Of a stretch of 64,000 nt of DNA, positions 15,224 to 44,314 are shown piece by piece. This DNA comes from an uncultured Nitrososphaeraceae archaeon (GTDB lineage Archaea > Thermoproteota > Nitrososphaeria > Nitrososphaerales > Nitrososphaeraceae). The notes under the pieces were generated by a model. It was not told the origin of the DNA. It did not search any database and worked only from the letters and a program-made list of their open reading frames with translations. How positions within the stretch are numbered: position 1 is the stretch's first letter; every line of letters begins with the position of its first letter. The stretch lies in the NCBI GenBank assembly GCA_963779615.1, contig CAVZZA010000003.1:192001-256000 (forward strand). Reading direction: 5' to 3'. Both the position numbers and the translations under genes were made by a program.

Positions 15224-15402
15224 TTAGCAATATGCAACATGCGGACAATAAACAATCCGGTTTGAGAGCCCTTACCCAAATAGTGGGACATTGCCATAAA
15301 AAGTATTTGCAATTTGTTAACCAAAGTCATTCTTCAAGATGCAATGAAAATTCAATCAATGTTCTTATTTTTAGTTTTTTGAATGATCTAATTTTAATTC
15401 CA

Positions 15403-16914: not shown

Positions 16915-17345
16915 AGATCAAGGTTAATGAAGCAGAATACGACATAGATATCTTTGGAGATAAAGCAATTATAGATGGCAGGGAGACAGCAATAGAAATA
17001 AAAGACGACAAGATCATCTTCGGGAATAAAGAATTCTGTCTTGACTTTTATGACGAACAGGAAGAAGAGTCATTATTAATTATAAACGGGTTGGCTTTCA
17101 TAGTGTCCAAAAAATCCCCGGACTATCAGACAGCTAAAGAAATAAAAGCCCCTATGAGCGGCCAAGTTTCTGAAATATTAATCCAAATCAATTCCAAAAT
17201 AGAAAAAGGACAGGGTCTTGTTGTTTTAGAAGCGATGAAAATGTTCAACGAGGTAAAGTCACCGGCAAAAGGAATCATAAAAGATGTCCTTGTGCAAAAA
17301 AACCAAGCAGTAAAGGCTGGAGAAATTATGTTAACTTTAAAGTAG
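16902..17345 (+). CDS. accB: Biotin carboxyl carrier protein
   Basis: APMSG and EAMKM biotinylation motif; overlaps the accC stop. Confidence 0.92.
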   Translation: MAQLKIKVNEAEYDIDIFGDKAIIDGRETAIEIKDDKIIFGNKEFCLDFYDEQEEESLLIINGLAFIVSKKSPDYQTAKEIKAPMSGQVSEILIQINSKIEKGQGLVVLEAMKMFNEVKSPAKGIIKDVLVQKNQAVKAGEIMLTLK

Positions 17346-25001: not shown

Positions 25002-25652
25002 TTGGATAATAGTAATCTGTATGTTAATGTAATAAAGTTTCAAGAGCAACTTGCAAAAAAAATTATCATGAGGGATGATTTTGACCGAGAAATTGAATTT
25101 GTTTGTGGAGTGGATGTGTCTTACAAAAAGGAAATTGCACATTGCTCAGCGGCAATAGTCAAAAAAAATACTTTGGAAATAGCAGAAGTAGTCAGTGACA
25201 CAAGTAAAATAAAGTACCCATATATTCCGAGATTATTTATGTTAAGAGAATCAAATCCAATACTGCAAACTTTAAAACTGCTTAAGAATCCTTTTCAACT
25301 TTTACTTATTGATGGGCATGGAATACTTCATCCCAGAAGATGTGGCTTAGCATGCCATATTGGTGTAATCACAAATAATCCCACTATTGGAGTTGCAAAA
25401 AGTCTGTTATGCGGAATTGTCCAGTCGGATGGTTTTGTGAAACACAATGATGATGTCCTTGGATATGCCATAAAAAGAGAGGGCAACCAAAAGAAAATGA
25501 TTTATGTGAGTCCCGGTCATAAGATAAGTCTACTTACATCAGTACGACTGGTTAAATCATTAACAAAGATAGGGGAGTTGATTCCGGAACCTATTAGAGT
25601 TGCAGATATCGCATCCAAAGACCATGACAACAAAGAACATATTTTGTTTTAA
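25002..25652 (+). CDS. nfi: Endonuclease V
   Basis: CGVDVSY, PYIPRLFMLRE, IDGHGILHPRRCGLA, IGVAKS, YVSPGH and PEPIR. Confidence 0.93.
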   Translation: MDNSNLYVNVIKFQEQLAKKIIMRDDFDREIEFVCGVDVSYKKEIAHCSAAIVKKNTLEIAEVVSDTSKIKYPYIPRLFMLRESNPILQTLKLLKNPFQLLLIDGHGILHPRRCGLACHIGVITNNPTIGVAKSLLCGIVQSDGFVKHNDDVLGYAIKREGNQKKMIYVSPGHKISLLTSVRLVKSLTKIGELIPEPIRVADIASKDHDNKEHILF

Positions 25653-25654
25653 GT

Positions 25655-26320
25655 AGTTTGTGATGTCCGATACCCTGTTGTATTTTATTAGTCTGTTTCT
25701 AAACATGTCTGCAAGAATCCTGCATTTCTTTATCTTGCAGATAGTACGCTCTATCACTATCCTTCTTTTAGAATGGCTTTTGTTGTGATCTTTTTCCTGA
25801 GACAATTCTGTGTTTCGTTTCTTTTTGTTTGGCATGGATGACTTTTGTTCTGGAAAGTCTCTCCCCCTCCACAGGCATCCAAGCTCAAACATGCTGACAG
25901 ATTGCTCTGGGGTTACAGGGTGACTTTTTGTATGGATGTCATAATCATGCCTTTTTCCTTTCTTGTGTTTTGCTTTATGAATGATGACACCCTAGTTGTT
26001 AACCATGAGCTGTGTCTTTACGACATGCCTTTTCCTCCTGCCCGAATGGTGCATCTTCTTTCTTCTTTTGTTTTCAGGCCTTGGTATCTGCTGTTTTGAG
26101 CAATCTAGGAAGCAAAGAAACCCTGGCAAGTACTTTCCAAATTCTTCTGGTGTGGACAGCCTTTTGGTTGTTTTGTGCATCTTTTGCGGAATTGGTACGC
26201 ACTTTGTTACCAACGACTCAATTTTTTGGAAATCCCTGCAGATGTTGCTCTGGTCCAAGGCAAACAAAAAGCCAGCCAAAGTGTAGGTTATGCAAAGGCG
26301 GCAATATTGAAAACGATAAC
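25655..26320 (-). mobile_element. Degraded IS transposase (HTH_Tnp_4/DDE_Tnp_4 type, IS5-like)
   Basis: ITYTLAGFLFALDQSNICRD, QQIPRP, SGRRKRHVVKTQ and RRIVIERTICKIKK, with stops and frameshifts. Confidence 0.85.
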
Positions 26321-26546
26321 AATAGGAAAAACACTTTTTATTGTTGTTCCATTGGATATCAATACAAAACAAAGAGCTTGTTAAAAGGATCACTTCTTTA
26401 TAGTTGTACTTTACTGGCGAGCCACCTAATTAAAGATAGAATAAAAAAAGAAATCTAACGCACATGCAACAAACTCAGTTTGTTTACGCCATTGTAAAAA
26501 AAGATAAGGTCTTGACTCTGTTTATCCAACTTGCGACTAGTCGCAT

Positions 26547-27011
26547 TTAATTAGTCCCATTATTGATCAGGTTCTGGCTGCTGTCCAGGTTCTGGCTGCT
26601 GTCCAGGTTCTGGCTGCTGTTCGAGTTCATGCCATTTATCAAGTTCTCGCTGATCAGGCTTTCGCTGCTGTCCAAGTTTTCGCTGCTGTTCAGGTTCTGG
26701 CTGCTGTTCGAGTTCATGCCATTTATCAAGTTCTCGCTGAGCGAACTTCCATCCCCATTTGTCGCGTCAAGTGTATTTTCAAAATCACGGCTTAAAGAGC
26801 TAAAAACACTCTCCTCCTGATTTGTTGATCCGTATGACACATTTGAAAGAACAAATGACAAAGGGTTTAAAAATAAATTAAAAGAGATAAAATAGCATAA
26901 GGTCAAAGTTAAAGTAAGCGTTAAAGAGTTGCCACAGGTCATCAAATATAGATAAAGGTTTAAATCTATTAAAGATATGGTAATGAAACTTTCTTTATAG
27001 TTAGTATACAA
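26547..27011 (-). CDS. Small exported Ser/Asn-rich repeat protein
   Basis: Hydrophobic N-terminus, then SSQNLD and SENLINGMNSN repeats. True start uncertain. Confidence 0.55.
   Translation of the reverse strand: MYTNYKESFITISLIDLNLYLYLMTCGNSLTLTLTLTLCYFISFNLFLNPLSFVLSNVSYGSTNQEESVFSSLSRDFENTLDATNGDGSSLSENLINGMNSNSSQNLNSSENLDSSESLISENLINGMNSNSSQNLDSSQNLDSSQNLINNGTN
26568..26740. repeat. 18-bp coding tandem units plus a roughly 50-bp duplication
   Basis: CAGGTTCTGGCTGCTGT(C) x3 and variants; 26604-26653 is repeated at 26691-26740. Confidence 0.9.
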
Positions 27012-31659: not shown

Positions 31660-32342
31660 TGTATTCCTACTCTGTCTTATTAATATTAAAGTTGTTCATG
31701 GTCAGGGGCCGAGGTTCAACAAAGGCATTATAAAAGATACAAATGAGCAAAAAAACATGCCCAAATTATTAAAAAAGCATAGTTTGGGAGAAATTTAATA
31801 TTGATGATCTCAAACAAGCATTAAAAGAATCCGCCAGGAGGCAAATACTCTTTTTGTAACCAAATTTGTTGTTCCAATATCAGCATAAATCCGCAACTGT
31901 TCTTATCAATTGTAGATAAAACACACCTCAAGTGTTAAAGATAGCAGATCCCCCACCATAACGGTCTTTTATATTAAACATCTGATCATTTCCAAAATTT
32001 ACCGCATGTGCTTTTGTCCCCATCTATGTGATAATAATGATAAAGTCTGGCAGGTCCAGAAATCGTATACTAATGTTTTAGGTATTGCAGTGATTGAGTC
32101 GTTTCCCCTCAAAAAAGTCATTGCTAAACAAACAGCATACAGAATCTGTAACCCTCCAGCGTATTGCGCACAAACAGATAATCAAGTCCAAACGGTATTG
32201 AAACCATATTTGATGGGACTTTACAATAGAAAATGTTAGGCCAGGGTTAAATTTTCTACAATCAGTACCCTGAAGTATTGCCATCTGTTTATTTTTTTTC
32301 TCTTTGTATACCAATGTAATAAGGATGAAAATATTTACGAAT

Positions 32343-33662
32343 TCAACCTTTGGCTGGAAGATGGATGGCTTCTCCATCAATAGCTCTTGCAGCTTCCGCA
32401 AATGCCTCTGGAAGGGTAGGATGAGCATGTATTGTATCGAAAACGTCTTTAGGACTTAGTTTCATTCTGATTGCTAGTGCTGCCTCACCTATAATTTCTC
32501 CAGCGTGTGGCGCAATAATATAGGCTCCGACAAGCCTTCCTTCCTTCTCAAATACCTTAACTGATCCCCTTGTGTCCCCCAAACAATTTGCCTTTGCGCT
32601 TGCAGCAAGTGGAAATTCTCCAGATCTTCCATGCAAATCCCCTACGAATGCAACCTCTGGATAGGTGAATACACATACAGGTAAAGATCGATAGTCAATT
32701 CTGTTGTCTTTTATTCCCATTATGCTTTCAGCCACGACCTCGCCCTGCTTTGATGCAACATGTGCAAGCTCATACATACCAGTTATATCACCAATTGCAT
32801 ATACATTGGCAACGTTAGTTCGCATTTTTTCATCCACACCAACACCTTGTTGATCGAATGCTACACCAATATCATTTAGTTCATTAGCATTGGTATTGGG
32901 CTTTCTCCCTATGCAAACTAGTATTTTTTCTGCAACAAGCTCTTTTCCATTAACAAAAGCAACGTTGTCAATAATTTTTTCGACTCTGGATTTTGTCAGT
33001 ACATTGACACCATCTAGCCTCATGTACTTCTCAATTGAACTTCCGACTTCCTGTATTTGAAAAGGCATTAGATGATCTTCAGCCTCGATCAAAGATACCT
33101 TGCATCCCATAGCATTCAAAATAGAGGCAAATTCACATCCACTGTACCCGCCTCCAACAATGGTAATCGACGTGGGTAAGTCATCTAGTTCCAGAATTGA
33201 ACTGGTCGACAGTATGTTTTTTCCAAATTCGTAACCTTGCAAACAAACAGGGTGGCTGCCGGTAGCAATAACAATATTTTTTGTCTCCAGCGTGGTGTCA
33301 TTGACTTCCACTTTATTTTCTGAAACCATGTGTGCTTCACCCTTCAGCAGATTGACACCATTGCTTTTTAGGAGAAGATTTATCCCAGAAGCGAGTCTGG
33401 AAACTGTGGCATCCATCCTTGACTTTAAAAGCCTATAATTCAATTCAGTTTGGATATTTAACCCGTTCTTCTTTGCGCCTTTTGCTCTTCTTATTGTATC
33501 TCCCAAGGAATGAAGGTACTTGGTGGGAATGCATCCCCTTTGGGTGCAGGTTCCACCCAGTCCGTTCTTCTCAATTAGGCAAACGTTACCACCAAGTTGC
33601 GCTGCTCTAATAGCGCAAGCATAACCACCAGGGCCTCCCCCTATTACTATTGCATCATACAT
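32343..33662 (-). CDS. lpdA: Dihydrolipoamide dehydrogenase (GCS L protein)
   Basis: GGGPGG, GGTCTQRGCIPTK, GGGYSGCE and HAHPTLPE; lies in the gcv cluster. Confidence 0.92.
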   Translation of the reverse strand: MYDAIVIGGGPGGYACAIRAAQLGGNVCLIEKNGLGGTCTQRGCIPTKYLHSLGDTIRRAKGAKKNGLNIQTELNYRLLKSRMDATVSRLASGINLLLKSNGVNLLKGEAHMVSENKVEVNDTTLETKNIVIATGSHPVCLQGYEFGKNILSTSSILELDDLPTSITIVGGGYSGCEFASILNAMGCKVSLIEAEDHLMPFQIQEVGSSIEKYMRLDGVNVLTKSRVEKIIDNVAFVNGKELVAEKILVCIGRKPNTNANELNDIGVAFDQQGVGVDEKMRTNVANVYAIGDITGMYELAHVASKQGEVVAESIMGIKDNRIDYRSLPVCVFTYPEVAFVGDLHGRSGEFPLAASAKANCLGDTRGSVKVFEKEGRLVGAYIIAPHAGEIIGEAALAIRMKLSPKDVFDTIHAHPTLPEAFAEAARAIDGEAIHLPAKG

Positions 33663-33714
33663 AATGCCTACCCTCCATAACTACCAAACGCTTGGCAATA
33701 AGCCTTTGAGCTAG

Positions 33715-34458
33715 TTATAATTTCTTTTTCCAATTCCACGGATCTGAGGCATATTTCTCACTGGCCAACTTTTTGGCTTTTTCCGCCTCTTCAATGGTTG
33801 GATCGTCTGCAACAATCTCAGAGCCAAATTTTTCACCGAAAGACTCCTTTAGAGCCCAGGATACCTCTTCAAACGTCTTGTCCAATCCCATCACCCTTGA
33901 TTTTGCATCGCTGATCATCTTGTCCCTGATTTTCTCAGATGGAACCTTTAGCACGGAAAACATCTTCTCAACATTAACACCTAATAATATAGTTCCATGC
34001 TGAAGTAGTGTGTTTTTCTTCCTAGTTTGGGCATTTCCAGACACTTTCTTGTTGTCGACTACTATGTCATTCAGTGGGGCAAATTTTGCGTTAAAGCCAA
34101 GCTTATTTATGCACATTACCACTGGATCGCATATCAAATTGTAAGATTCCATGATGTTTTTTGGATAAATATTTGTGATGAACGAATAAGTCAGTTCAGA
34201 ATCATGCAATACCGCTCCACCTCCTGTTATTCTCCTGACAACATCAATACCCATTTGCGCACACTTTTTTAGATCCACTTCCTCATCAATGCTCTGGAAG
34301 TACCCTATAGAGACAGTTGGTGGTTGCCAGCCATAAAGCCTTAAAATGGGCATATCATTGTTTGCGCCGTGCATTAACACCTCATCAAGAGCCATATTCC
34401 ATGGCCCCGGGTTGTGCCCAGTCTCCAAAATTCTGATTTTGCCAAACTTGAGACTCAT
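33715..34458 (-). CDS. lplA: Lipoate-protein ligase catalytic subunit
   Basis: NMALDE, VSIGYFQ, RRITGGGAVLHD, NDIV..KKVSGNAQ and LQHGT. Confidence 0.9.
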   Translation of the reverse strand: MSLKFGKIRILETGHNPGPWNMALDEVLMHGANNDMPILRLYGWQPPTVSIGYFQSIDEEVDLKKCAQMGIDVVRRITGGGAVLHDSELTYSFITNIYPKNIMESYNLICDPVVMCINKLGFNAKFAPLNDIVVDNKKVSGNAQTRKKNTLLQHGTILLGVNVEKMFSVLKVPSEKIRDKMISDAKSRVMGLDKTFEEVSWALKESFGEKFGSEIVADDPTIEEAEKAKKLASEKYASDPWNWKKKL

Positions 34459-34496
34459 TGCTCCTTCATCCTCCTTTTGTTTTTTCCTGTTAGTAA

Positions 34497-34784
34497 CTAG
34501 CCGTGTTCATGACCTAAACATCCAAGAATTGCATCTGTCATAGATTCCAGATCAAAACCAAACGCCTCAGAGCCGCTCAGGCATTTTTCGACCTTTTGTC
34601 CAATAGAGTCCTTATCTAACTTTGCGCCAATCAAACCGACCTCAAGTGTGTCCAAACTTTCCTCCGGGTAAAGAAAAAAATCCCCTGTTATTGTTATAGA
34701 GTCAATTGTTTTACTGTGCTCATCATATTCCAGTGAAACCTTGATCAATTTTTTTGATTTGTATATATTATTTGCCTTTCTCAC
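34497..34784 (-). CDS. Lipoate ligase accessory (C-terminal domain) subunit, LplB-like
   Basis: KLIKV..ITITGDFFLYPEE; stand-alone and adjacent to lplA. Confidence 0.85.
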   Translation of the reverse strand: MRKANNIYKSKKLIKVSLEYDEHSKTIDSITITGDFFLYPEESLDTLEVGLIGAKLDKDSIGQKVEKCLSGSEAFGFDLESMTDAILGCLGHEHG

Positions 34785-34850
34785 TTATCATTCCACTACC
34801 CGCATCTTTTCAAAAGACAAGCAAATCCTCCCTACCTGTCTGCCTACCCT

Positions 34851-36311
34851 TCACCGTCTTTTTTCATCATGTTGTGAAGGTATGGTCCATCTTAAGTTCG
34901 GCTTTCGCGCTGCTGCAACCTCGTCTAGCCTACCAATTGATTTTGTGTATGGAGATCCCTTGGCAATATCGGGGTTTTCCTTAATCTCATCTGCTATGCT
35001 TCTTAATGCCGATGCAAACCTATCCAGCGTTTCTTTGCTTTCTGTTTCGGTGGGCTCAATCATCAATGCTTCGCGAACAATCAGGGGAAAATAAATAGTA
35101 GGTGGGTGAAAACCATAATCCATGAGCCTCTTCGCAATGTTTAAAGCGCTCTTTTCGCCAAATTTCCTGGAAGATAAGACAAATTCATGAGCACACCTTC
35201 GGTCATACGGAAGTTCGTATGTATCGTTTAACAGACTGAGAAGGTAATTGGCATTCAAAATCGCGTGTTCAGATACCTTTCTCATATTTGTGCCCCATGA
35301 CTTGATATAGCAATAAGCTCTGACCAGCATTCCAAAGTTTCCATAAGAATACCTGACCCTTCCCACAGATTTCCTTAGGGTATAATCCAGGGTTAACTTG
35401 TTGTCTTGCTTTGTTACCCGTGGCAATGGCAAATAATCCTCCAGGAACGACTTTACCCCTACACTTCCTGCTCCAGGGCCTCCGCCACCATGCGGAGTTG
35501 AAAAGGTCTTGTGAAGGTTCAAGTGAATCATGTCAAACCCCTGGTCGCTCGGCCTGGTTATTCCAAGTAGCGCATTCATGTTTGCACCATCACAATACAT
35601 TAAAGCCCCATTGCCATGTGCAAGGTCACTAATCTCCAGAATCTTTTCTTCAAAAAGTCCAAGGGTATTAGGATTTGTTAGCATGACAAGCGCCACATCA
35701 TGTGTAAGTGACTCCTTGAATTTGCAAATATCCATGTTGCCCCGGGAGTCAGAGGGGATGGTAATGGTATCAAACTTGCACATGCCCGCAGTTGCAGGGT
35801 TTGTGCCATGGGCAGAATCAGGGATAATTATTTTCGTTCTTTTTTCATTCTTTTGCCTAAAGTAAGCCTTTGTTATCATAATGCCTAAAAGCTCACCCTG
35901 TGCTCCGGCTGCAGGCTGCAGTGAAAAGGCGTCCATGCCTGTAATTTTCTTCAAGTCTTGTTCAAATTCCCACATCAATTGCAGCGATCCCTGAGTGCAG
36001 CTTTCATGAGAAAGGGGATGAAGATCCATGAATCCACCCAGCCTTGCGATATCCTCATTTATCTTCGGGTTGTACTTCATTGTACATGAACCCAGTGGGT
36101 AAAATCCAAGGTCGATACCAAAATTTTTTCTTGACATGTTGGTGTAGTGTCTTACAACACTGATCTCGCTCACATTTGGAAGGGGAAGTTCTTTTCGGAT
36201 CAGGTCTTTTGGCAGTCCGGTAAGAATGTCTTCAACCCCTTCTTTTTGGTTGTCATCAACACCACGCACATGTCCTGTGGCTTGTTCTTCGTATTCGAAT
36301 ATCAGCTTCAC
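34851..36311 (-). CDS. gcvPB: Glycine decarboxylase P protein, subunit 2
   Basis: YPLGSCTMKYNP, QPAAGAQGE, SAHGTNPA and PLP lysine motif HLNLHKTFSTPHGGGGPG. The GTG start overlaps the gcvPA TGA. Confidence 0.95.
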   Translation of the reverse strand: MKLIFEYEEQATGHVRGVDDNQKEGVEDILTGLPKDLIRKELPLPNVSEISVVRHYTNMSRKNFGIDLGFYPLGSCTMKYNPKINEDIARLGGFMDLHPLSHESCTQGSLQLMWEFEQDLKKITGMDAFSLQPAAGAQGELLGIMITKAYFRQKNEKRTKIIIPDSAHGTNPATAGMCKFDTITIPSDSRGNMDICKFKESLTHDVALVMLTNPNTLGLFEEKILEISDLAHGNGALMYCDGANMNALLGITRPSDQGFDMIHLNLHKTFSTPHGGGGPGAGSVGVKSFLEDYLPLPRVTKQDNKLTLDYTLRKSVGRVRYSYGNFGMLVRAYCYIKSWGTNMRKVSEHAILNANYLLSLLNDTYELPYDRRCAHEFVLSSRKFGEKSALNIAKRLMDYGFHPPTIYFPLIVREALMIEPTETESKETLDRFASALRSIADEIKENPDIAKGSPYTKSIGRLDEVAAARKPNLRWTIPSQHDEKRR

Positions 36312-37591
36312 TTTCTTAGTGTCCCCTTTGTTACTGAAATAAAAGATTCTATGTCTTGAACTGTGTTCATCTCGGTGCAGCAAATTAACATCTTATCCTC
36401 ATCCAAATTGAGGCCCCCAAGAATCCCATTTTTGAGCAGGCTTGAGGAAATGTTTTCAGAGGAACCCTGAGGCGCACTCACAATGAACTCGTTGTAGAAT
36501 GGCTTTTTGTTTAGGGTTGTGAATCCACATCTCCTCAATTTATCGTGCAATAGGTGTGCCCTACTGTAAGAGAGTTTGGCAACATTGGTTAGCCCATCCC
36601 TGCCCATAAGAGCCAAATAAATAGTCGATGCTAGAGCCATCAATGCCACATTTGTTGTTATGTTGCTCGTGGCCCTTTCTCTTCGTATATGCTGCTCGCG
36701 AGCTTGAAATGTCAGCACAAAGCCTTTGTTTCCCTTGGAGTCTGTGGTCATGCCGCAAATTCTTCCGGGGATTTTCTTTAATAAAAAATCCCTGACACCA
36801 ATAAACCCAAGATACGGGCCACCAAAATTTATTGGAATGCCAAATGACTGTCCTTCGCCAACTACTATATCTGCACCATAGTTTCCAGGAGGTTCCAGTA
36901 TTGCGAGTGAGGTAGGCTCTACTACACAGGTAATAAAGAGCGCGCCGACTCTGTGTGCCTGTTCGGACACGTACTGCAAATTCTCAACGTTTCCGTAGAA
37001 ATCAGGGTTCTGCGCAATCACACATGCCGTATTCTCATCAATCTCATTTGAGAGTTTGAGGTCCGCTACCTCAAAGTACGTTTTTAGAACTTCAAGATAT
37101 TGAGGGTTGAGGCCATCCTTTACAAAAACGCAATTCCTTCCGCTATATGATGAACAGAGCAATACTGCCTCTGCCAATGCAGATGAACCATCATACATGG
37201 AAGCATTGGCCACATCCATGCCTGTAAGCAGGCATATGAACGATTGGAATTCGTACATAGCATGCAGGGTTCCCTGACTCATTTCTGCCTGATATGGCGT
37301 ATAGCCTGTAAGGAATTCTCCCCTCAATAACAAATGGTTTACTGCAGACGGGATATAATGGTGGTAAGATCCACCTCCAATAAAGTATTTCATGATCTTG
37401 TTCTTTAGGGATAGATTCGTCATATGTGCCCCAAGCTCAAGCTCACTCATTGGGTCAGAGAGATCCAGTTCTTGATTAAAAAGTGGCTTGAAATCCACTG
37501 TTAAGTCATTTATCGATCTTACCCCAATTTGCCTTAACATGTCTTCTCTATCTTTTTTAGTTGTAGGTATGTAGTTCATAATAATTGACAT
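36308..37591 (-). CDS. gcvPA: Glycine decarboxylase P protein, subunit 1
   Basis: YTPYQAEMSQG, NASMYDG, FGGPYLG and REQHIRRERATSNI. Confidence 0.95.
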   Translation of the reverse strand: MSIIMNYIPTTKKDREDMLRQIGVRSINDLTVDFKPLFNQELDLSDPMSELELGAHMTNLSLKNKIMKYFIGGGSYHHYIPSAVNHLLLRGEFLTGYTPYQAEMSQGTLHAMYEFQSFICLLTGMDVANASMYDGSSALAEAVLLCSSYSGRNCVFVKDGLNPQYLEVLKTYFEVADLKLSNEIDENTACVIAQNPDFYGNVENLQYVSEQAHRVGALFITCVVEPTSLAILEPPGNYGADIVVGEGQSFGIPINFGGPYLGFIGVRDFLLKKIPGRICGMTTDSKGNKGFVLTFQAREQHIRRERATSNITTNVALMALASTIYLALMGRDGLTNVAKLSYSRAHLLHDKLRRCGFTTLNKKPFYNEFIVSAPQGSSENISSSLLKNGILGGLNLDEDKMLICCTEMNTVQDIESFISVTKGTLRK

Positions 37592-37621
37592 CCAACCCGT
37601 TCTTTCATCTTTTCCTTCTTC

Positions 37622-38011
37622 TTATTCCTTTTCCATTTCGCCAACGAACTTGTTATATTGCTCACTTGTCATCAAACTTTTAAGCTCTTCATCCATATTC
37701 GAGGGTTTCATTTTCACAATCCAACCCAATTCGTGCGGGGATTGGTTTACCAGTTCGGGATGCTCAAGCAACTCCTCGTTGACATCCACAACCTCTCCGC
37801 TCAGGGCACAGTATATGTCAGAAGAGGCCTTTACCGAGTCAATTATAGCCATTGTTTCCATGTACCTAAATACACTGCCGACCCTTGGCAACTCTATCGA
37901 AACTATATCCCCTATCTGTCTTTGAGCAAAATCTGAAATCCCCATAACAGCAATTCCTTCCTGTATTATAATCCATTCGTGCTCTTTTGTAAATCTTGTT
38001 CCCTCATTCAC
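37622..38011 (-). CDS. gcvH: Glycine cleavage H protein
   Basis: FTKEHEWI, GISDFAQ and lipoyl lysine in DSVKASSDIY. Confidence 0.95.
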   Translation of the reverse strand: MNEGTRFTKEHEWIIIQEGIAVMGISDFAQRQIGDIVSIELPRVGSVFRYMETMAIIDSVKASSDIYCALSGEVVDVNEELLEHPELVNQSPHELGWIVKMKPSNMDEELKSLMTSEQYNKFVGEMEKE

Positions 38012-38043
38012 AGAGATCTATTTTTAATGTTCTATAAAAAATC

Positions 38044-39108
38044 TTATTTTCTCCTATAGAAGCGTGTGCTGCTAACTTTTGCTTTATACAATTTACCGCT
38101 AATATTAATTTCAATTAATTGGTTTGGCAAAACACGTATAGGAACAAAGCAAAAGCCAATGGATTTTTTTATAGTTGGTGAAAAGCTTCCGCTCGTCACA
38201 AAACCCGCCTTCTCCCCATCAACTAATACTTCGTTTCCGTGCCTAGCTATCCTTTTTTCCTGAACCTCAAACCCCACAAGCTTTCTGTTTATCTGCTGAG
38301 TCAATAATGCTTCCCTTCCAATGAACTCTTTCTTATCAAACTTTACCGTCCATTTAAGGGGAACCTCTAATGGAGTAGTATTTTCGTTAATGTCATTTCC
38401 ATAAAGCATTAGACCAGCCTCCAATCTGAGCGTGTCTCTGGCACCCAAGCCGTTCGGTTTGATGTTAAATCTGGAACCTGACTGCATGAGCTTGTTCCAA
38501 ATATCCATTTTTGAAGAATCAAAGAACAGCTCAAAACCATCTTCTCCCGTATAACCAGTCCTTGATATCACGCATTCTATTCCAAAAACCTTTGCAATAG
38601 CAATACCAAAGGGTTTTAAGAGATCCAGGTTTACGCCAACCATTGTTTTCTCAAGGACCTTTTGTGCAAGAGGCCCCTGGAGTGCCAGAAGAGCAGTTTT
38701 GTTACTAATGTTTTCAACAACAGCTGACTTTGAGTGCTTAACAATCCAATCCAGATCCCCTTCCCTGTTTGAGGCATTGACCACAACAAGAAATTTCTCC
38801 CTGCTTATTCTGTATATGATTAGATCGTCAATTATTCCACCATTATCATGGCATATGGGAGAATAGAGTGCCTGATGGTCGTCTAGTTTAGAAATGTCAT
38901 TAGTTACTAACGTTTGTATACAATCATAGGCATAGGAGCCTTTAACCTCAAAACGGCCCATGTGTGAGACATCAAACAGACCAACGTTTGTTCTGGTGTT
39001 GATATGCTCGTCAATTATTCCTGAATATTGCAGAGGCATTTCCCATCCATGAAAGCTCAGCATTTTTGCTTCAAGCGACCTGTGAATGTCATAAAAAGGT
39101 GTTTTCAT
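38044..39108 (-). CDS. gcvT: Aminomethyltransferase (T protein)
   Basis: GWEMPLQY, FDVSHMG, SRTGYTGEDGFE and GLGARDTLRLEAG. Confidence 0.96.
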   Translation of the reverse strand: MKTPFYDIHRSLEAKMLSFHGWEMPLQYSGIIDEHINTRTNVGLFDVSHMGRFEVKGSYAYDCIQTLVTNDISKLDDHQALYSPICHDNGGIIDDLIIYRISREKFLVVVNASNREGDLDWIVKHSKSAVVENISNKTALLALQGPLAQKVLEKTMVGVNLDLLKPFGIAIAKVFGIECVISRTGYTGEDGFELFFDSSKMDIWNKLMQSGSRFNIKPNGLGARDTLRLEAGLMLYGNDINENTTPLEVPLKWTVKFDKKEFIGREALLTQQINRKLVGFEVQEKRIARHGNEVLVDGEKAGFVTSGSFSPTIKKSIGFCFVPIRVLPNQLIEINISGKLYKAKVSSTRFYRRK

Positions 39109-39194
39109 GTGTATGTAAGCCAGATAATAATTAACGAATGATGTGTTTAACTCTTATTATTATGATTGTTGATTGATTACAAAGGCGTGTAAAA
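39109..39194. promoter_or_regulatory. Divergent promoter region between gcvT and lipA
   Basis: 86-bp AT-rich gap between head-to-head genes, with ATAATAA/TTATTAT inverted elements. Exact TATA boxes not assigned. Confidence 0.45.
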
Positions 39195-40079
39195 GTGGAC
39201 CTAATAAAAAAACCAGTGTGGCTTAGAGCGAGAGCACCATCCGGAGAAAACTATACAAAGGTTAAACAATCACTCAGGTCACTAGACCTTCATACCGTTT
39301 GTGAGGAAGCTAGATGCCCCAACATATCAGAGTGCTGGGGAACAGGTACAGCCACAATCATGATTATGGGGGACACATGCAGCAGAGGCTGCAGATTTTG
39401 TGCTGTCAATAGCGGCAAGCCAGTTTTACTTGATGCAGAGGAGCCCAAAAGAGTGGCCAAGGCAATCAAAGAATGGGGATTGAGATATGTGGTAATCACC
39501 TCCGTTTGTAGAGACGACCTAAAGGATGGAGGAGCAGACCACATAGCCAAAACAATCAAAGCCATAAAGGATCTGTGCCCAAAAATAATAGTAGAACCGC
39601 TCATCCCAGACTTCAGGGGAAATGAGGATTCAATAAAAAAGGTGGTGGAATCAAAGCCGGAGGTTATAAGTCACAACATAGAAACCGTAAGCAGACTCAC
39701 GCCCAAAGTCAGGGATGCCAGAGCGTCATATGAACAATCTCTCCTGGTCCTAAAGAAAATCAAGGATATCGATTCAGCAGTCTTCACAAAGTCCTCCATA
39801 ATGCTTGGTCTTGGTGAAAACGAAAAAGAGGTTATTCAGACAATAATGGATCTGAGATCGGTCGGGGTCAACATATTAACTTTGGGCCAATACCTTCAGC
39901 CGAATCCAAAGTATTTGCCAGTTGCCGAATATGTCACACCAGAAAAATTTAACTGGTTTAGGGAAATTGCAGAGTCAATGGGGTTTGCCTATGTAGCTTC
40001 CGGCCCACTTGTTAGGAGTTCTTACAGAGCAGGCGAGTTTTTTGTAGAAAAAATTGTAGGCAGGAATAAAGGAGTCTAA
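39195..40079 (+). CDS. lipA: Lipoyl synthase
   Basis: CEEARCPNISEC (CX4CX5C), CSRGCRFC (radical SAM) and RSSY. Confidence 0.96.
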   Translation: MDLIKKPVWLRARAPSGENYTKVKQSLRSLDLHTVCEEARCPNISECWGTGTATIMIMGDTCSRGCRFCAVNSGKPVLLDAEEPKRVAKAIKEWGLRYVVITSVCRDDLKDGGADHIAKTIKAIKDLCPKIIVEPLIPDFRGNEDSIKKVVESKPEVISHNIETVSRLTPKVRDARASYEQSLLVLKKIKDIDSAVFTKSSIMLGLGENEKEVIQTIMDLRSVGVNILTLGQYLQPNPKYLPVAEYVTPEKFNWFREIAESMGFAYVASGPLVRSSYRAGEFFVEKIVGRNKGV

Positions 40080-40833
40080 ACGTTGCCTAACCACACCATA
40101 CTTACAAAATGCAAAATATAATGGCACAACAGATAAAGAATACAAAAGATAACGTGCGGAAAATATAAATCGCCTTTGATACGATTTATACTCATCTCTC
40201 CCAGAAGTAGTCTTTTAACAAATCATTGTCAAACAACATAATATTACAAGGACGCATACGATCCCATGCCATTATTGGGCCCAAGGGGTTTAGTAATAGG
40301 TACATTACGGGCCTAAATTTTCGGTTTTATAATTGCGACACCAATCCTTATCATCTTACCATCACTTTTTTTGGTTATTGCCAGATCACATGGAAAAATT
40401 CTTGTCACTTTATCACAATGCAATGAGCAACGCACCTAATCCACAGGTTGTAGCCAATGAGACAATCCCAGCAGTAGAAATGGTTTAATGGAAATAAATC
40501 CTAATTCACTCAAAGAGTAACAGCGGAAATGGCTCCAAAAAATATTCTAAATTTAAAAAGGACCCATCGGAAAACGAATTTCACGAAATGCTAATGGAAG
40601 ACCAGCTAAAGCAGGCCAAATTATTTCCATGGCACTTCATCATTTAATGATTATCATGGCAAGAAAGCAAAAAGCAAGCGAACAGAGCCGGTCCTGATAC
40701 TTTAATATATTTAACAAAGAACATTACATTGGTTATTTTAGACAGAGCACAAATACGCATTAATGTTGTAAATATGCCATAGCTCCAAGATACACAAATA
40801 AAAATGGGCTTGTGTTAACAAGTATGGTAATCG

Positions 40834-41891
40834 TTAATGTTCTTGAAAAATTAATGAAATTGGAAAATGATCACTAAACCCCTCCTTATTCATATAGCTT
40901 GGTTTCCCGCATTTTGTGGGTCTCCCGAATTTTTTGGGTACCTCATATGAATATCTTTCCTCATATAGAACGTATTCCCCTATCTTTTTGTTTACCTTAA
41001 CTGAACCATCTTTGACGCCTACTTTATTCACAAAAGCTATGGATTTTGAAACCATAAACTGGTCAAGCATATTGGGATAGGTTGTATACTTGTCGAAACA
41101 AGGGTCTGGTTCTTTTTTACCAAAGTAATAGGTAGCGAGACCCCGATTAACCAAAGACCACATCAGATTATAAAAGAAAGGAACATGTTCTGATTTTTCC
41201 AGTTGCTCTTTATAAGGGGTAGAAAACGCATAATCCATCAATGATCTGCTAAATGGCATGTCATTGAAGTCTCCCATTACTATTATTGGAATATCGTCTC
41301 CAAGTTCTTCCAAAATGCGTTTATGGAAATAGGACAAAGCATCTGCAGCAGCTATTCTATAAGGTTCAGTGATAAGTTCTCCGATAGTCCTGGACGGCCA
41401 ATGATTTCCTATTAGTACCTATTTGAGTACCCTGACGTTTTTATCCTAAAGTTTACTTGTAGGATGTTACGAGTAGCTTCCTCCCTTAAGACTTGGTGTG
41501 AAAATACAAGGTCTTTACCCGTTTGATTGTGTTTTGCTATTTCAAATTTTGAAGCGTCGTAAATAAATCCAACTTCAATGCCCCTTTTGTCGTCATATTC
41601 CTCATGCACAACCTGATAATTCCGAGGAACGAAGTTCTTTATTTTAGTTACCAACTTATTTACCACGGGTCCATCTTCCACCTCACAAACTCCTATTATG
41701 TCTGGACCATTGCCATGGTTCATCTTTGATATGATTTTTGCCAGTTGAGAGATTTTGGTAATTAGAACTTTTTCGTTCCACCCTATTAGCTCATCTTTTA
41801 AAACCTCTTTTAACCGGCTAGATCTTTCAGTAGAGTTTTCTATATCAAAAAGATTTTCTACATTCCACCACGCTACAAAATATTTATCCAT
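40834..41891 (-). pseudogene. Endonuclease/exonuclease/phosphatase family nuclease, frameshifted
   Basis: WNVENLFD and GVCEVE in the first ORF; NHWPSR, MGDFND and SDHFPI in the second frame. The shift is near 41420. Confidence 0.85.
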
Positions 41892-42169
41892 GTTTCAAAT
41901 AAAAAGACGCATATGGTATAAAAATAACAAAACAGTATAGTTTTTTTTATGATTTTACAGTAATGCTTTGTTGCACGGTTACATTAAATCGTTTCTGTTG
42001 GCGATTTGATTTATCACCCTAATACACAATGATAGCATAATTTAACGCGATTTTATAAAAATACGGCCCAGGTTTAGATGTTTTTTGAGTCATGTAACAA
42101 GCATAGCCAATACACCTTTGCAATTAAATGGATAGGAAAGGTTTCTTGGCAATATCTTTTACCGTGAAT

Positions 42170-42400
42170 TTTGTGTTTCATCCAAAAATGGTTCTATGAT
42201 TGCTGTAAACTTTTCTGGATGTTGCCAAAGATAACTACTTGATGATTTTTTGGTAGTTCTTGTAAATATATGAGGGCCAAACACCCATTACATTACCACT
42301 TCCACTAATTAGTAAAACAGGTTCACCGTTACCAAACATCTTGCATGCGATGTCTATGTCTCCAACATGGACTTTTTCTGTCTGCATGTCCTGCATTTTC
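42170..42400 (-). pseudogene. Alpha/beta hydrolase relic with an internal deletion
   Basis: EKVHVGDIDIACKMFGNGEPVLLISG is joined to C-terminal WQHPEKFTAIIEPFL. Confidence 0.6.
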
Positions 42401-42837
42401 ACCGAAATTTTTATACTGAATTCACTAGGTTTTTATCTGATTTACTGAAGACCGCATTAGGAGTGTCAATATAACCATTATTACTGATCAAGGAACTAGG
42501 GACAAGAGGCACAATGCGAAAACAAGAAGAAAGACTGATCTTGTGACCGCATTCTTCCTAACAGGCATATTAACGGGCGTGACTCTCGATGCGCCATGCG
42601 TTATTTAAGCATGCAGGATTACCAATTTGGCTGGTCATAAGGATTCAAGGGCTAGCCCTGTTACTGATAACGGGATTATCAATTAATAACCACTTGGAGA
42701 TTCAGAAGTAGAAAAAAATTTTCCTACAATCCTCATAGTCAATCTATGTGTACAATACAATAGAACAATTTTACTGAAAATCTTAAGGGAAAGATCTTTA
42801 AATCCACATTTAGGCAATATAATCATATGATAAGGTA

Positions 42838-43329
42838 TTGCAGATATACCCAAATTTCATCGATGCATTAAATAAAAAAGCATTGACTCTTTACAGGCTC
42901 CAGCAATACGACAAAGCCTTGGAAAAACTCGATGAGGCTATTTCAATGGACACCAACAATTCACACGCATATAATCTGAAGGGTCTTGCTTTAATGAATT
43001 GTAACCGATATTCGGAAGCTCTTTCAGCTTTTGATAAGTCCATAGAGATTGATTCCAAATATTTGGCACCTTTAAAAAACAAAGGCATTGTGTCCATGAA
43101 AAATCAAAAATATAATGAAGCGATAGACATTTTCACTAATGCATTGCAAATCGATCCCATAGATCAATTTGCAATGGATGCTAAGAGTACTGCAATGCAT
43201 CTATTAAACCTGTATTCCAGATTATATGTGATTGATGAAGCAAGCGAAATGAAGTCAGGACCAGATGGATTGTCTGAGTATTGCGGGACTCATGGGAAAA
43301 AAGGGGCCCACTCTAGCCATAACAATTAA
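42838..43329 (+). CDS. TPR repeat protein, possibly 5'-truncated
   Basis: Three TPR units, e.g. AYNLKGLAL..YSEALSAFDKSIEIDS. Confidence 0.75.
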   Translation: MQIYPNFIDALNKKALTLYRLQQYDKALEKLDEAISMDTNNSHAYNLKGLALMNCNRYSEALSAFDKSIEIDSKYLAPLKNKGIVSMKNQKYNEAIDIFTNALQIDPIDQFAMDAKSTAMHLLNLYSRLYVIDEASEMKSGPDGLSEYCGTHGKKGAHSSHNN

Positions 43330-43840
43330 ACAGCAATCCCATAAAATTACAATAGCTTTAAGGGATTTGGTAACAGGCATATCATTATGAGTCCACACTA
43401 AAGTCTTGTAAATCAGTCTTTTCCAAACGTGTTTTTTGCCAATTTACTTGCAAACAACAAACCAGTTTTTTAACATACACTTATTATTTGCAACTAATTC
43501 AATTCTCATTTTAGGGACCCATCTAAAAAGATGCAGAAATGCACTGGACTGAGTGGGATCAGCATTGGTATTGAATCCTAGCAAAGATCCAACAAATCTG
43601 AGTATGATTATCGCTAAAATGGACATCATCTGGTAAAGAATTGTTTTTGCATCAAATTTTTTGAAGAGTAATTAATATAAACCACATTGAATAGAAAATA
43701 TGAGTGTCATCCGGTATTAATTTGTGTAATTTTGAATTGCATCAACCTTGAAAATTTGATTTGTTGGGAAATCTGTAAATATGCCATATATTGCTAAATT
43801 TAATAACAATCCAGAAATACAAATGATTTCATGGTAACTA

Positions 43841-44314
43841 TTGTTGTTGGAAGAAATTAGCATAGAAGGTTATTTTGGGATTGGTGAAGCAATAGGAATT
43901 ATCTCCACCTTATTTGTTATCCTTTATTTTTCACGAAAACAAATGCAGAGTTTAACAGTTGATTTGGAAACAAAGATCCTAAATGATTTGGATGACAAGA
44001 TAAACGGATTAACCCGGATGATGGTGGACAGTCCTGAATTAATTAAGGTAGTAAGCAAATCAGAATCGCATTTTACACCGGATTTAGCATTTAGTTATCA
44101 CGTATTATATACATTTGCACACGCTTTCCATATGCGACAACGTGGAGTGGTGAGAGATAATGAATGGCATGGATGGTTCAGGTATATAAAATCTGCGTTT
44201 CAACATGGCGAGATATATGACATATGGAAGAATAACATAGAATTGGAAAAATGGTTTGATCCTGCTTTTCAGGAATTCATTAACGACGAAATAATTCCCG
44301 TTGTCAGGAAGTAG
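43841..44314 (+). CDS. Conserved hypothetical single-TM protein
   Basis: N-terminal TM; FAHAFHMRQRGVVRDNEWHGW..WFDPAFQEFIN. Confidence 0.7.
   Translation: MLLEEISIEGYFGIGEAIGIISTLFVILYFSRKQMQSLTVDLETKILNDLDDKINGLTRMMVDSPELIKVVSKSESHFTPDLAFSYHVLYTFAHAFHMRQRGVVRDNEWHGWFRYIKSAFQHGEIYDIWKNNIELEKWFDPAFQEFINDEIIPVVRK

What the first reader, a model, noticed from the sequence alone, without database searches (positions are those of the whole stretch)
32343..40079. Complete, self-sufficient glycine cleavage cassette in an apparent ammonia-oxidising archaeon
Seen: eight intact genes (gcvT-H-PA-PB-lplB-lplA-lpd and divergent lipA) with all catalytic motifs, in a region where many neighbours are pseudogenes, which suggests selection. 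Established: GCS converts glycine to NH3, CO2, a methylene-folate C1 unit and NADH. Inference: the host looks like Nitrososphaeraceae, and as far as I recall typical AOA lack GCS and lipoate-dependent complexes. The cassette could supply the energy substrate (NH3), CO2 and reductant from glycine, i.e. organic-N-fuelled nitrification or mixotrophy. It could also run in reverse to make glycine. This is the best candidate for a new system here.
Basis: partly seen in the sequence, partly recalled or inferred. Interest (0 to 1): 0.85.

Follow-up and report, generated by a model that had tools for sequence, protein, structure and literature searches.

The report
Borrowed glycine-cleavage cassette in soil archaeon
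A soil ammonia-oxidising archaeon carries a complete, intact gene set for splitting glycine plus the genes that make its lipoic-acid cofactor; the same set is already known from about a tenth of such archaea, and this genome seems to have picked it up recently from a neighbouring genus.

Summary
Eight intact genes (lipA divergent from gcvT-gcvH-gcvPA-gcvPB-lplB-lplA-lpd) lie at 32343-40079. The host is an ammonia oxidiser, with archaeal amoA on the same contig.

The cassette is not a new system. The same eight genes in the same order occur in 40 of 109 related loci, from Nitrososphaeraceae to Nitrosopumilus. GcvPB is found in 28 of 315 sampled species genomes of the amoA-bearing families. Papers already describe it in deep-sea, sponge and arctic ammonia oxidisers, including the idea that glycine feeds ammonia oxidation.

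What is new is local. None of 33 other genomes of this genus has it. It sits between two genes that lie 4-5 kb apart in congeners. Its nearest relatives are in other genera, at 88% DNA identity over exactly 32286-40156. Synonymous divergence is 0.47, against 1.8 for aEF-2 between this genome and its closest congeners. This points to recent horizontal gain, followed by purifying selection (dN/dS 0.10).

The "pseudogene neighbourhood" argument is weak, because the assembly also splits the essential EF-1α gene. The function is an ordinary glycine cleavage system; its physiological role is untested.

The parts
32286..40156 (.). Whole cassette as a unit: the stretch of DNA shared with the nearest relative
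   Evidence: A single collinear blastn match to L035 (88.1% over 7878 columns). Shorter matches to L036, L039 and L041 end at the same edges. No homology in the flanks.
39195..40079 (+). lipA, lipoyl synthase (294 aa), divergent from the gcv operon
   Evidence: TIGR00510 398.7 bits vs 310.25. CX4CX5C, CX3CX2C and RSSY are present.
38044..39108 (-). gcvT, aminomethyltransferase (354 aa)
   Evidence: NF001567 426.4 bits vs 300; Pfam GCV_T plus GCV_T_C.
37622..38011 (-). gcvH, lipoyl carrier H-protein (129 aa)
   Evidence: NF002270 145.2 bits vs 117. The SVKA lysine aligns with solved H-protein 2edg_A, E 3e-34.
36308..37591 (-). gcvPA, glycine dehydrogenase subunit 1 (427 aa)
   Evidence: NF001696 519.3 bits vs 364.
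34851..36311 (-). gcvPB, glycine dehydrogenase subunit 2. Likely start is the GTG at 36311 (486 aa); the mechanical ORF runs to 36383.
   Evidence: NF003346 682.8 bits vs 441. GTGA overlap with the gcvPA stop. NLHKTF present. Nearest solved chain 1wyt_B, E 2.2e-146.
34497..34784 (-). lplB, small accessory subunit of a two-part lipoate-protein ligase (95 aa)
   Evidence: Pfam Lip_prot_lig_C 26.9 bits vs 24. NF053749 52.6 bits is below its cut-off of 65.
33715..34458 (-). lplA, catalytic subunit of the lipoate-protein ligase (247 aa)
   Evidence: Pfam LplA-B_cat 164.6 bits vs 27. Nearest solved chains are the LplA chains 2ars_A (E 9e-31) and 3r07_A, the latter deposited as 'subunit 1'; RRxTGGGAV and the KK(V/I)xG lysine are aligned.
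32343..33662 (-). lpd, dihydrolipoyl dehydrogenase, the L-protein (439 aa)
   Evidence: TIGR01350 431.1 bits vs 408.8. CTQRGC and HPTLPE present.
25002..25652 (+). Endonuclease V gene: conserved left anchor of the variable stretch
   Evidence: Pfam. Syntenic at 75-80% DNA identity in congeners G409 and G417.
25560..26393 (-). Broken IS transposase (DDE_Tnp_4 / HTH_Tnp_4), a multi-copy element
   Evidence: At least 7 further copies in G000 and many in congeners.
40834..41891 (-). Exo_endo_phos_3 gene split into two ORFs (41412-41891 and 40834-41337)
   Evidence: Pfam model positions 2-139 and 184-308 of 311. A DNA-run contig lacks one base each at 41419 and 41430 (table 4). By my arithmetic, that would put both pieces in one frame.
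42838..43329 (+). TPR protein gene: conserved right anchor of the variable stretch
   Evidence: Pfam. 85-86% DNA identity in G409 and G417, which place it only 4-5 kb from the endonuclease V gene, against 17 kb here.

Best explanation
This is the standard glycine cleavage system of ammonia-oxidising archaea, packaged with its own cofactor supply. The P-protein is a GcvPA/GcvPB pair. With it are T-protein, H-protein and L-protein, a two-part lipoate/octanoate-protein ligase (LplA+LplB) and the lipoyl synthase LipA.

Inferred mechanism, from established knowledge of these families:
1. LplAB loads free octanoate or lipoate onto the GcvH lysine.
2. LipA inserts the two sulfurs.
3. GcvP decarboxylates glycine onto lipoyl-GcvH.
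4. GcvT releases NH3 and passes the carbon to tetrahydrofolate.
5. Lpd re-oxidises the lipoyl arm and yields NADH.

GcvH is the only lipoyl acceptor found in the genome, so the three lipoylation genes serve this one pathway.

The 7.9-kb unit was gained recently by horizontal transfer from another soil Nitrososphaeraceae genus. It landed in a variable, IS-bearing stretch of a genome whose genus otherwise lacks it, and it has since been kept under purifying selection.

The most likely role is glycine cleavage: C1 units for SHMT/FolD-linked metabolism, with NH3, CO2 and NADH as products. Whether the NH3 matters for energy is open.

Shown here: gene identities, distribution, transfer signal and selection. 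Inferred: direction of flux and physiological role.
For: Identity:
- Curated family cut-offs are passed by 6 of 8 proteins, and Pfam cut-offs by all 8.
- Motifs are present.
- The nearest solved chains are a two-subunit P-protein, an LplA chain deposited as 'subunit 1' and H-proteins.

Dedicated lipoylation:
- No 2-oxoacid_dh E2 in the genome (genome 92.5% complete).
- Both Biotin_lipoyl hits lie beside biotin carboxylases.
- Bipartite LplAB with LipA is a described archaeal route that uses free octanoate or lipoate (PMC10332631, passages read).

Known cassette:
- 40 of 109 compared loci hold all eight genes in this order and orientation.
- All 84 ammonia-oxidiser rows form one clade in a GcvPA+PB tree (SH-aLRT 100).

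Horizontal gain:
- GcvPB family found in 0 of 33 other genomes of the genus, and none of the matches listed for those 33 genomes lies in the cassette part of the DNA query.
- On an aEF-2 tree the host is nested inside its genus, as (G332,(G000,(G360,G371))), support 100/99.
- The cassette groups with genera g87 and g86 (100/100).
- An AU test rejects grouping it with the cassettes of g3-like genomes, g3 being part of the genus's apparent sister group (p 2.4e-58).
- Cassette proteins are 86-92% identical to those of g87. SHMT is 78% identical to g87 and 86-92% identical within the genus.
- Cassette dS is 0.47 to g87 and 0.76 to g86. aEF-2 dS is 1.79-1.84 to the closest congeners and saturated to 11 other genomes, including g87.
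- Homology ends at the cassette edges.
- Endonuclease V and TPR genes flank the site. They are 4-5 kb apart in two congeners and 17 kb apart here.
- An IS remnant lies at the left edge of the variable stretch.

Selection: dN/dS is 0.10-0.11 over 1684-2364 codons, with no garbled stretches.

Downstream genes: SHMT and FolD are present.

Weak hint of use: contigs from three soil metatranscriptome libraries (three studies) lie on 12-14 of the 14 cassette bins at 93-99% identity. This shows presence in RNA libraries, not proof of transcription.
Against: - The host tree and the dS yardstick rest on one housekeeping gene (aEF-2). The sister relation of genus g1 to g3+g9 is only 91/83.
- The AU group was chosen after the tree was seen.
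- Base composition does not mark the cassette as foreign. It is in the top 5% of 7.7-kb windows (0.422 vs 0.363), but its genes sit at the 56th-87th percentile of long ORFs.
- No integrase, tRNA or flanking repeats define an insertion mechanism.
- 13 of the 33 congeners are below 90% completeness or above 5% contamination.
- The window's branch is about 7 times longer than its sister's (0.097 vs 0.013). This could mean some relaxation of constraint.
- The source of octanoate is not encoded here. The KASIII-like/luciferase-like pair that accompanies the cassette in 17-18 of 74 other loci is missing.
- Nothing here shows enzyme activity, direction of flux or glycine uptake.
Confidence: 0.72

Rival explanations
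1. One reading: the cassette's main role is to feed nitrification. Glycine taken up from soil or the rhizosphere is split, and the released NH3 is oxidised by AMO, with NADH and CO2 as bonuses (mixotrophy, or organic-N-fuelled ammonia oxidation).
For: The stoichiometry of the system yields NH3, CO2 and NADH (established knowledge). The host has amoA and an amino-acid permease family gene. The cassette was recently gained and is kept under purifying selection in a soil lineage. DNA runs labelled soil or rhizosphere metagenomes hold a fifth to a third of its sampled words; none of these was laid, and the one DNA run laid, X1, is labelled an outdoor metagenome. The same idea is in print for sponge symbionts (PMC7848895, passages).
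Against: No transporter or regulator is linked to the cassette; none of the 43 flanking ORFs scanned is a glycine carrier. One NH3 per glycine is a small energy yield. In most organisms the system serves C1 and glycine balance. No physiological data exist for any ammonia oxidiser that carries it, in the papers whose passages I read.
Confidence: 0.2
2. Vertical retention: the cassette is ancestral to the genus and was lost in every other sampled lineage.
For: The cassette is old in ammonia oxidisers: one clade, and in 16-17 of 74 loci it sits beside the same FBPase-TIM genes in different families. Loss is evidently common, since 287 of 315 sampled genomes lack it.
Against: This needs at least three independent losses on the aEF-2 tree of 9 genus members and absence in 33 of 33 congeners. 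Cassette dS to another genus (0.47) is far below aEF-2 dS to the nearest congeners (1.8). FBPase-TIM in G000 has no cassette beside it. The gene tree conflicts with the host tree.
Confidence: 0.05
3. The system runs in reverse as a glycine synthase, assimilating CO2, NH3 and a C1 unit (reductive glycine route).
For: The reaction is reversible (established knowledge; stated in PMC7848895). FolD and SHMT are present.
Against: No formate-tetrahydrofolate ligase was found (genome 92.5% complete). The host has acetyl/propionyl-CoA carboxylase genes, so another carbon-fixation route is available. Congeners without the cassette still have SHMT (5 of 5 tested), so glycine supply does not depend on it.
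Confidence: 0.05
4. Assembly artefact: the cassette belongs to a co-occurring Nitrososphaeraceae organism and was joined into this contig by mistake.
For: The assembly has errors (EF-1α frameshift). Its nearest relatives are in other genera.
Against: The nearest known sequence is only 88% identical, so no known donor genome is the source. A contig in an independent run (X16) runs from inside lipA across the right edge into the flank (joint 40152 to 40555). Depth in DNA run X1 continues over both edges, though X1 may be the source sample. Codon GC3 lies within the host's range.
Confidence: 0.03

Closest known systems
[quoted passage not shown] Nitrosopolaris (PMC7265257, PMC7848895, PMC13006922; passages read)
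   Same: Same gene content: gcvH, P and T, the E3, a COG0095 ligase and the COG0320 lipoyl synthase. Loci titled Nitrosopumilus and Nitrosotalea hold the eight genes in the same order and orientation, and shorter loci titled Nitrosotenuis and Nitrosopolaris are collinear as far as they reach. The window falls in the same clade. The host bears amoA.
   Different: This is the first case among 34 sampled genomes of this genus, which is probably Nitrosocosmicus. The genus name is my recall from genome sizes, GC content and rRNA copy number; no tool gave it. Two full-text searches found no paper that reports the system in that genus. Here it is a recent horizontal gain in a variable region, and it lacks the KASIII-like/luciferase-like pair seen beside the cassette in 17-18 of 74 loci.
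Two-subunit P-protein glycine cleavage system with a solved structure (1wyt/1wyu/1wyv); Thermus thermophilus by my recall, the tool named no organism
   Same: GcvPB matches chain 1wyt_B at E 2.2e-146 over residues 33-474. The P-protein is split into subunits 1 and 2. The NLHKTF pyridoxal-phosphate lysine motif is present (meaning recalled).
   Different: This one is archaeal and sits in an operon with its own lipoylation genes.
Bipartite LplA-LplB lipoate-protein ligase of archaea (solved chains 2ars and 3r07, Thermoplasma acidophilum by my recall; the tool named no organism) combined with LipA, the 'Lpl/LipA' route of Tanabe et al. 2023 (PMC10332631)
   Same: Separate catalytic (247 aa) and accessory (95 aa) polypeptides. 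The best solved matches are the LplA chains 2ars_A and 3r07_A. LipA is of the classical type (TIGR00510), not LipS1/S2 (LipS2 scores only 24.9 bits vs 270).
   Different: Both subunits score below the NCBIfam 'exception' models built for this form, so they are a divergent branch. By my recall Thermoplasma lacks a lipoyl synthase, and the paper says so in its Discussion. Here LipA is adjacent, which implies that octanoate can be used.

Membership tests
Glycine cleavage system (P, T, H, L) | P-protein (here GcvPA+GcvPB) with the pyridoxal-phosphate lysine | tested here: met
   NF001696 519.3 bits vs 364 and NF003346 682.8 bits vs 441. NLHKTF at 289 (motif meaning recalled). 1wyt_B at E 2.2e-146.
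Glycine cleavage system (P, T, H, L) | T-protein aminomethyltransferase with folate-binding and C-terminal barrel domains | tested here: met
   PF01571 297.5 bits and PF08669 73.9 bits. TIGR00528 367.6 bits vs 235.85.
Glycine cleavage system (P, T, H, L) | H-protein with the lipoyl-lysine | tested here: met
   NF002270 145.2 bits vs 117. 'DSVKAS' aligns with 'ESVKAA' of solved 2edg_A.
Glycine cleavage system (P, T, H, L) | L-protein: dihydrolipoyl dehydrogenase with a redox-active disulfide | tested here: met
   TIGR01350 431.1 bits vs 408.8. CTQRGC at 39 and HPTLPE at 414 (meaning recalled).
Glycine cleavage system (P, T, H, L) | Glycine-dependent CO2/NH3 release and methylene-tetrahydrofolate formation | not testable with these tools
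   Needs an enzyme assay or labelling.
Lpl/LipA lipoate assembly with a bipartite ligase | Separate LplA catalytic subunit | tested here: met
   PF21948 164.6 bits vs 27; 2ars_A at E 9e-31. It is below the NCBIfam NF053750 cut-off (175.9 vs 480).
Lpl/LipA lipoate assembly with a bipartite ligase | Separate LplB accessory subunit | tested here: inconclusive
   PF10437 26.9 bits vs 24, but NF053749 52.6 bits vs 65. Its position between gcvPB and lplA is conserved in relatives.
Lpl/LipA lipoate assembly with a bipartite ligase | Classical LipA with radical-SAM and auxiliary cluster cysteines | tested here: met
   TIGR00510 398.7 bits vs 310.25. CX3CX2C, CX4CX5C and RSSY present (meaning recalled).
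Lpl/LipA lipoate assembly with a bipartite ligase | A source of the eight-carbon chain | tested here: not met
   Nothing in the cassette supplies it. No homologue of the KASIII-like gene that neighbours the cassette in other ammonia oxidisers (tblastn, E<=1e-5). Free octanoate or lipoate from outside remains possible.
Eight-gene cassette of ammonia-oxidising archaea | Order lipA(-) gcvT gcvH gcvPA gcvPB lplB lplA lpd(+) | tested here: met
   Identical in 40 of 109 compared loci. The other ammonia-oxidiser loci are cut by contig or locus ends and are collinear as far as they go, except L037 and L040.
Eight-gene cassette of ammonia-oxidising archaea | Falls in the ammonia-oxidiser clade of GcvPA+PB | tested here: met
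   An 84-row clade with SH-aLRT 100. The window lies inside a Nitrososphaeraceae subclade.
Eight-gene cassette of ammonia-oxidising archaea | Host carries archaeal amoA | tested here: met
   amoA on the same contig, 390.6 bits. All 28 strong GcvPB holders are amoA-positive.

The most novel reading that the evidence does not exclude
The 7.9-kb cassette is a self-contained metabolic module that still moves between genera of soil ammonia oxidisers. Supporting signs are exact-edge homology, different flanks in every genus and two copies in some genomes. Its recent fixation in this lineage may reflect a real niche shift: using glycine, for example from root exudates, as a private source of ammonia, reductant and C1 units. 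That would make part of soil nitrification organic-nitrogen-driven.
Probability: 0.2. Interest if true: 0.6.

Novelty: new member of a known kind. Interest (0 to 1): 0.3.

Why it matters
Whether ammonia-oxidising archaea are strict autotrophs living on free ammonia, or can tap organic nitrogen, is a long-running question. This cassette is one of the few gene sets that could link an amino acid directly to their energy substrate. This genome does not add a new system.

It does add a clean natural experiment. The lineage gained the cassette recently, while 33 sampled congeners lack it. A comparison of glycine use between close relatives with and without the cassette would therefore be unusually well controlled. 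The data also show that the module is exchanged among soil Nitrososphaeraceae, not only inherited and lost.

Tried and rejected
- Base composition as a sign of foreign origin: the cassette GC is 0.422 against a genome GC of 0.363, but single genes lie at the 56th-87th percentile of long ORFs. Not used as evidence.
- Insertion signatures: no tRNA in the window, no Rfam family, and no convincing direct or inverted repeats at 32286 or 40156. The best pair spanning the cassette is a 39-nt inverted repeat, 72% complementary, at 29036 and 41981, which I take as chance.
- Uncovered parts in the laid runs: the RNA-library contigs leave most of 40424-44000 without depth (bins with depth: X8 3 of 6, X16 1 of 6, X18 0 of 6), while DNA run X1 covers 5 of 6.
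- Habitat from run labels: the shares of words held were 0.14-0.36. Only four runs were laid, so no habitat claim is made beyond 'soil-type metagenomes hold close relatives'.
- Earlier scan notes by place: none exist for this genome.
- Origin of the ammonia-oxidiser cassette outside the class: in the 93-row tree it is sister to one DPANN (Bilamarchaeaceae) row and separate from three rows of amoA-lacking Nitrososphaeria, which group with Armatimonadota. With an unrooted tree, long branches and few outgroups, I do not claim either retention from the class ancestor or re-acquisition.
- Supplementary tables of the papers cited, which may list which genomes carry the system, were closed and not seen.
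- Structure prediction, fold search, complex prediction, the search for homologous proteins and the search of protein representatives were not used, because the families are unambiguous.

Full report
**What is there.**
The stretch 32343-40079 holds eight uninterrupted ORFs. On the minus strand lie gcvT, gcvH, gcvPA, gcvPB, lplB, lplA and lpd. lipA is divergent on the plus strand.
- All eight pass Pfam gathering scores.
- Six pass NCBIfam curated cut-offs: GcvT, GcvH, GcvPA, GcvPB, Lpd and LipA. The two ligase subunits score below the cut-offs of the models for the bipartite form.
- The expected cysteine and lysine motifs are present (their meaning is recalled from memory).
- The H-protein lysine aligns with that of a solved H-protein. 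LplA aligns best with the solved LplA chains 2ars_A and 3r07_A, the latter deposited as 'subunit 1'. GcvPB aligns best with a solved two-subunit P-protein.
- The mechanical TTG start of gcvPB is probably wrong. A GTG at 36311 overlaps the gcvPA stop as GTGA.

**The host.**
The window is G000:C3:192001-256000, in a 3.17-Mb, five-contig genome rated 92.5% complete.
- An archaeal amoA lies on the same contig, about 590 kb away.
- There are three SSU rRNA genes.
- The window also carries a carboxyltransferase/biotin carboxylase/BCCP operon at 13688-17345.
- Family f1 rows are sequence-identical to records titled Nitrososphaera sp., and f2 rows to Nitrosopumilus, Nitrosotenuis and Nitrosotalea. The host family is therefore Nitrososphaeraceae.
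- The genus (g1) is probably Nitrosocosmicus. That name is my recall from genome sizes, 36% GC and multiple rRNA operons. No tool gave it.

**How common the system is.**
In a sample of 400 other species genomes of the class:
- amoA occurs in f1 (74 of 78), f2 (214 of 223), f3 (10 of 10) and f5 (4 of 4), and in 0 of 85 genomes of the other families.
- GcvPB at E<=1e-100 occurs in 10 of 78 f1, 16 of 223 f2, 0 of 10 f3 and 2 of 4 f5 genomes. That is 28 of 315, all amoA-positive. It also occurs in 52 of the 85 amoA-lacking genomes.
- A second, genus-balanced sample of f1 gave 22 of 110 at E<=1e-40, concentrated in g11 (5 of 7), g12 (6 of 10) and g10 (4 of 11).
- These tallies include genomes flagged unpublished: G132 and G365, and G365 and G470. 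No conclusion depends on them alone.

**The cassette is a conserved unit.**
- Of 109 related loci (29, 80), 40 hold all eight genes in the window's order and orientation. They range from Nitrososphaeraceae to Nitrosopumilus.
- The remaining ammonia-oxidiser loci are cut by contig ends, except L037 (three genes inserted after gcvH) and L040.
- In a GcvPA+PB tree of 93 rows, all 84 ammonia-oxidiser rows form one clade (SH-aLRT 100).

**Literature.**
- The gene set is reported for a hadal Nitrosopumilaceae genome, where it lies 'near the insertion sites', and for other deep-sea lineages (PMC7265257, passages).
- It is reported for two sponge symbionts, with the explicit suggestion that downstream oxidation of the ammonia yields energy (PMC7848895, passages).
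- It is reported for Ca. Nitrosopolaris (PMC13006922, one passage), and it appears in a figure legend for sediment lineages (PMC8397731).
- An ancestral reconstruction lists the family among losses at the origin of ammonia oxidisers (PMC7554672, one passage).
- An early survey found no lipoylation genes in five Thaumarchaeota (PMC3904984, passages).
- Two full-text searches found no report of it in Nitrosocosmicus. Supplementary tables could not be read.

**What is special here.**
- The GcvPB family model finds nothing in 33 of 33 other genomes of the genus. Of these, 20 are at least 90% complete with at most 5% contamination.
- A 20-kb DNA query gives matches only to the flanks (matches weaker than E 6.6e-56 were not listed).
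- On an aEF-2 tree of 41 rows the genus is monophyletic (100/99). G000 is nested as (G332,(G000,(G360,G371))).
- The cassette groups with L035 and L036 (100/100). Through identical coordinates, these loci lie in genera g87 and g86, which sit in a different part of the aEF-2 tree.
- Holding the window together with the cassettes of g3-like genomes (g3 is part of the genus's apparent sister group) costs 158 log-likelihood units (p-AU 2.4e-58). The group was named after the tree was seen.
- Cassette proteins are 86-92% identical to L035. SHMT is 78% identical to g87 and 86-92% identical within the genus.

| Comparison | Codons | dS |
|---|---|---|
| Cassette, G000 vs L035 (g87) | 1684 | 0.47 |
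| Cassette, G000 vs L036 (g86) | 2364 | 0.76 |
| Cassette, G000 vs L039 (g3-like) | 2354 | 0.94 |
| aEF-2, G000 vs nearest congeners G371 and G360 | 725-738 | 1.79-1.84 |
| aEF-2, G000 vs G332 | 735 | 3.0 |
| aEF-2, G000 vs 11 other genomes, including g87 | 535-734 | not computable (saturated) |

(Cassette values; aEF-2 values.)

- DNA homology to L035 is one collinear block, 32286-40156, at 88.1%. It stops within 80 bases of the outer stop codons.
- The flanks of the cassette differ in every one of the 15 nearest loci.
- In G000 the cassette lies between an endonuclease V gene and a TPR gene. These are 4-5 kb apart in congeners G409 and G417 and 17 kb apart here. A broken multi-copy IS lies beside the endonuclease V gene.
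- The FBPase-TIM pair neighbours the cassette in 16-17 of 74 other loci. In G000 that pair has no cassette beside it.
- Together these results favour one recent gain over at least three losses.

**Selection and integrity.**
- dN/dS is 0.10-0.11 for every comparison.
- Mismatches to relatives are evenly spread.
Three split genes were seen among 43 flanking ORFs scanned. The assembly also breaks the single EF-1α gene by one extra base in its conserved core. A contig from another DNA run differs by single-base deletions at 41419 and 41430, next to where the Exo_endo_phos gene is split.

**How it probably works.**
- No E2 acyltransferase was found. The only two biotin/lipoyl domains belong to carboxylase carrier proteins. 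GcvH is therefore the sole lipoyl acceptor, and lplA, lplB and lipA serve it alone.
- A bipartite LplAB with LipA is a described archaeal route that starts from free octanoate or lipoate (PMC10332631, passages).
- The source of the C8 chain is not encoded here. The KASIII-like/luciferase-like pair that earlier notes of this scan pointed out does neighbour the cassette in 17-18 of 74 loci. It has no homologue in G000.
- SHMT and FolD are present. Formate-tetrahydrofolate ligase was not found. This fits cleavage feeding C1 metabolism better than reductive glycine synthesis.
- Contigs from three soil metatranscriptome libraries of three studies lie on 12-14 of the 14 cassette bins at 93-99% identity. 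This is a hint of use in the field, not proof of transcription.

**Verdict.**
This genome is a new carrier, the only one among 34 sampled genomes of its genus. There is good evidence that the whole cassette arrived recently by transfer from another soil Nitrososphaeraceae genus and is under purifying selection. The physiological idea of glycine-fed nitrification is neither new nor tested. This lineage and its cassette-free congeners would be a good pair in which to test it.

Noticed in passing
G000 contig C3, about 308596-309895 (outside the window): The single EF-1α gene is read in two frames. One extra base sits inside the conserved G-V-G-T-V-P-V-G-R-V-E-T-G stretch. This points to indel errors in the assembly, and fits 92.5% completeness for a five-contig genome.
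   Followed up: partly
window 13688-17345: A carboxyltransferase, biotin carboxylase and BCCP operon. Its carboxyltransferase has patchy orthologues: 86% in G360, 73% in G399 and 76-77% in G171, G444, G449 and G429. The other 8 of 14 genomes tested hold only a 56-60% paralogue. A second biotin carboxylase plus BCCP lies at G000:C5, about 690 kb. This may be an accessory second carboxylase.
   Followed up: partly
window 2000-8000: An island of about 50% GC in a 36% GC genome. It holds an SDR, a zinc alcohol dehydrogenase split into two overlapping ORFs (5617-6237 and 6057-6596) and a luciferase-like monooxygenase. Probably another foreign segment.
   Followed up: partly
window 25560-26393: A broken DDE_Tnp_4 transposase element. 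At least 7 further copies at 77-81% identity occur in G000, and many occur in congeners.
   Followed up: partly
window 26546-26755: An 18-nt tandem repeat (GGTTCTGGCTGCTGTCCA-like) inside the ORF 26547-27011, which matches no Pfam family.
   Followed up: no
window 40152-40555: A contig in RNA-library run X16 joins 40152 to 40555 with nine other letters in between. Run X18 has a loose end with the same letters at 40152. So a strain variant lacks about 400 bases right at the cassette's right edge.
   Followed up: no
G364 (contigs C1 and C35); L065 and L099 (same Nitrosotenuis record set): Some Nitrosopumilaceae genomes carry two cassettes of different subclades (about 73% and 64% identical to the window's GcvPB). 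This is another sign of exchange between lineages.
   Followed up: no
G326, G347, G365, G468; L088, L093, L106: In genera g8 and g10 and in a record titled Nitrosopolaris, GcvPB matches in two pieces within one longer ORF (584-601 aa). This implies an insert of some tens of residues near residue 325.
   Followed up: no
L105, L111: Contigs titled Bilamarchaeaceae (DPANN, Micrarchaeia) carry GcvPB 55-58% identical to the window's. In L105 it is followed by lplB and lplA, as in ammonia oxidisers. L111 is the sister of the ammonia-oxidiser clade in the tree.
   Followed up: no
L101: A 2.2-kb contig binned as Aminicenantales bacterium carries a Nitrosopumilaceae-type gcvPB-lplB (63% and 48% identical). 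Probably misbinned.
   Followed up: no
window 57191-57781: A 196-aa ORF matches Pfam Peptidase_C70, the papain-like cysteine protease family of AvrRpt2 (E 1.8e-15). An odd family to see in an archaeon.
   Followed up: no
L035 (10164-12033): In the nearest relative, lplA and lpd are each read in pieces (coverage 0.55 and 0.56). The cause is either frameshifts in that assembly or decay of its copy.
   Followed up: no
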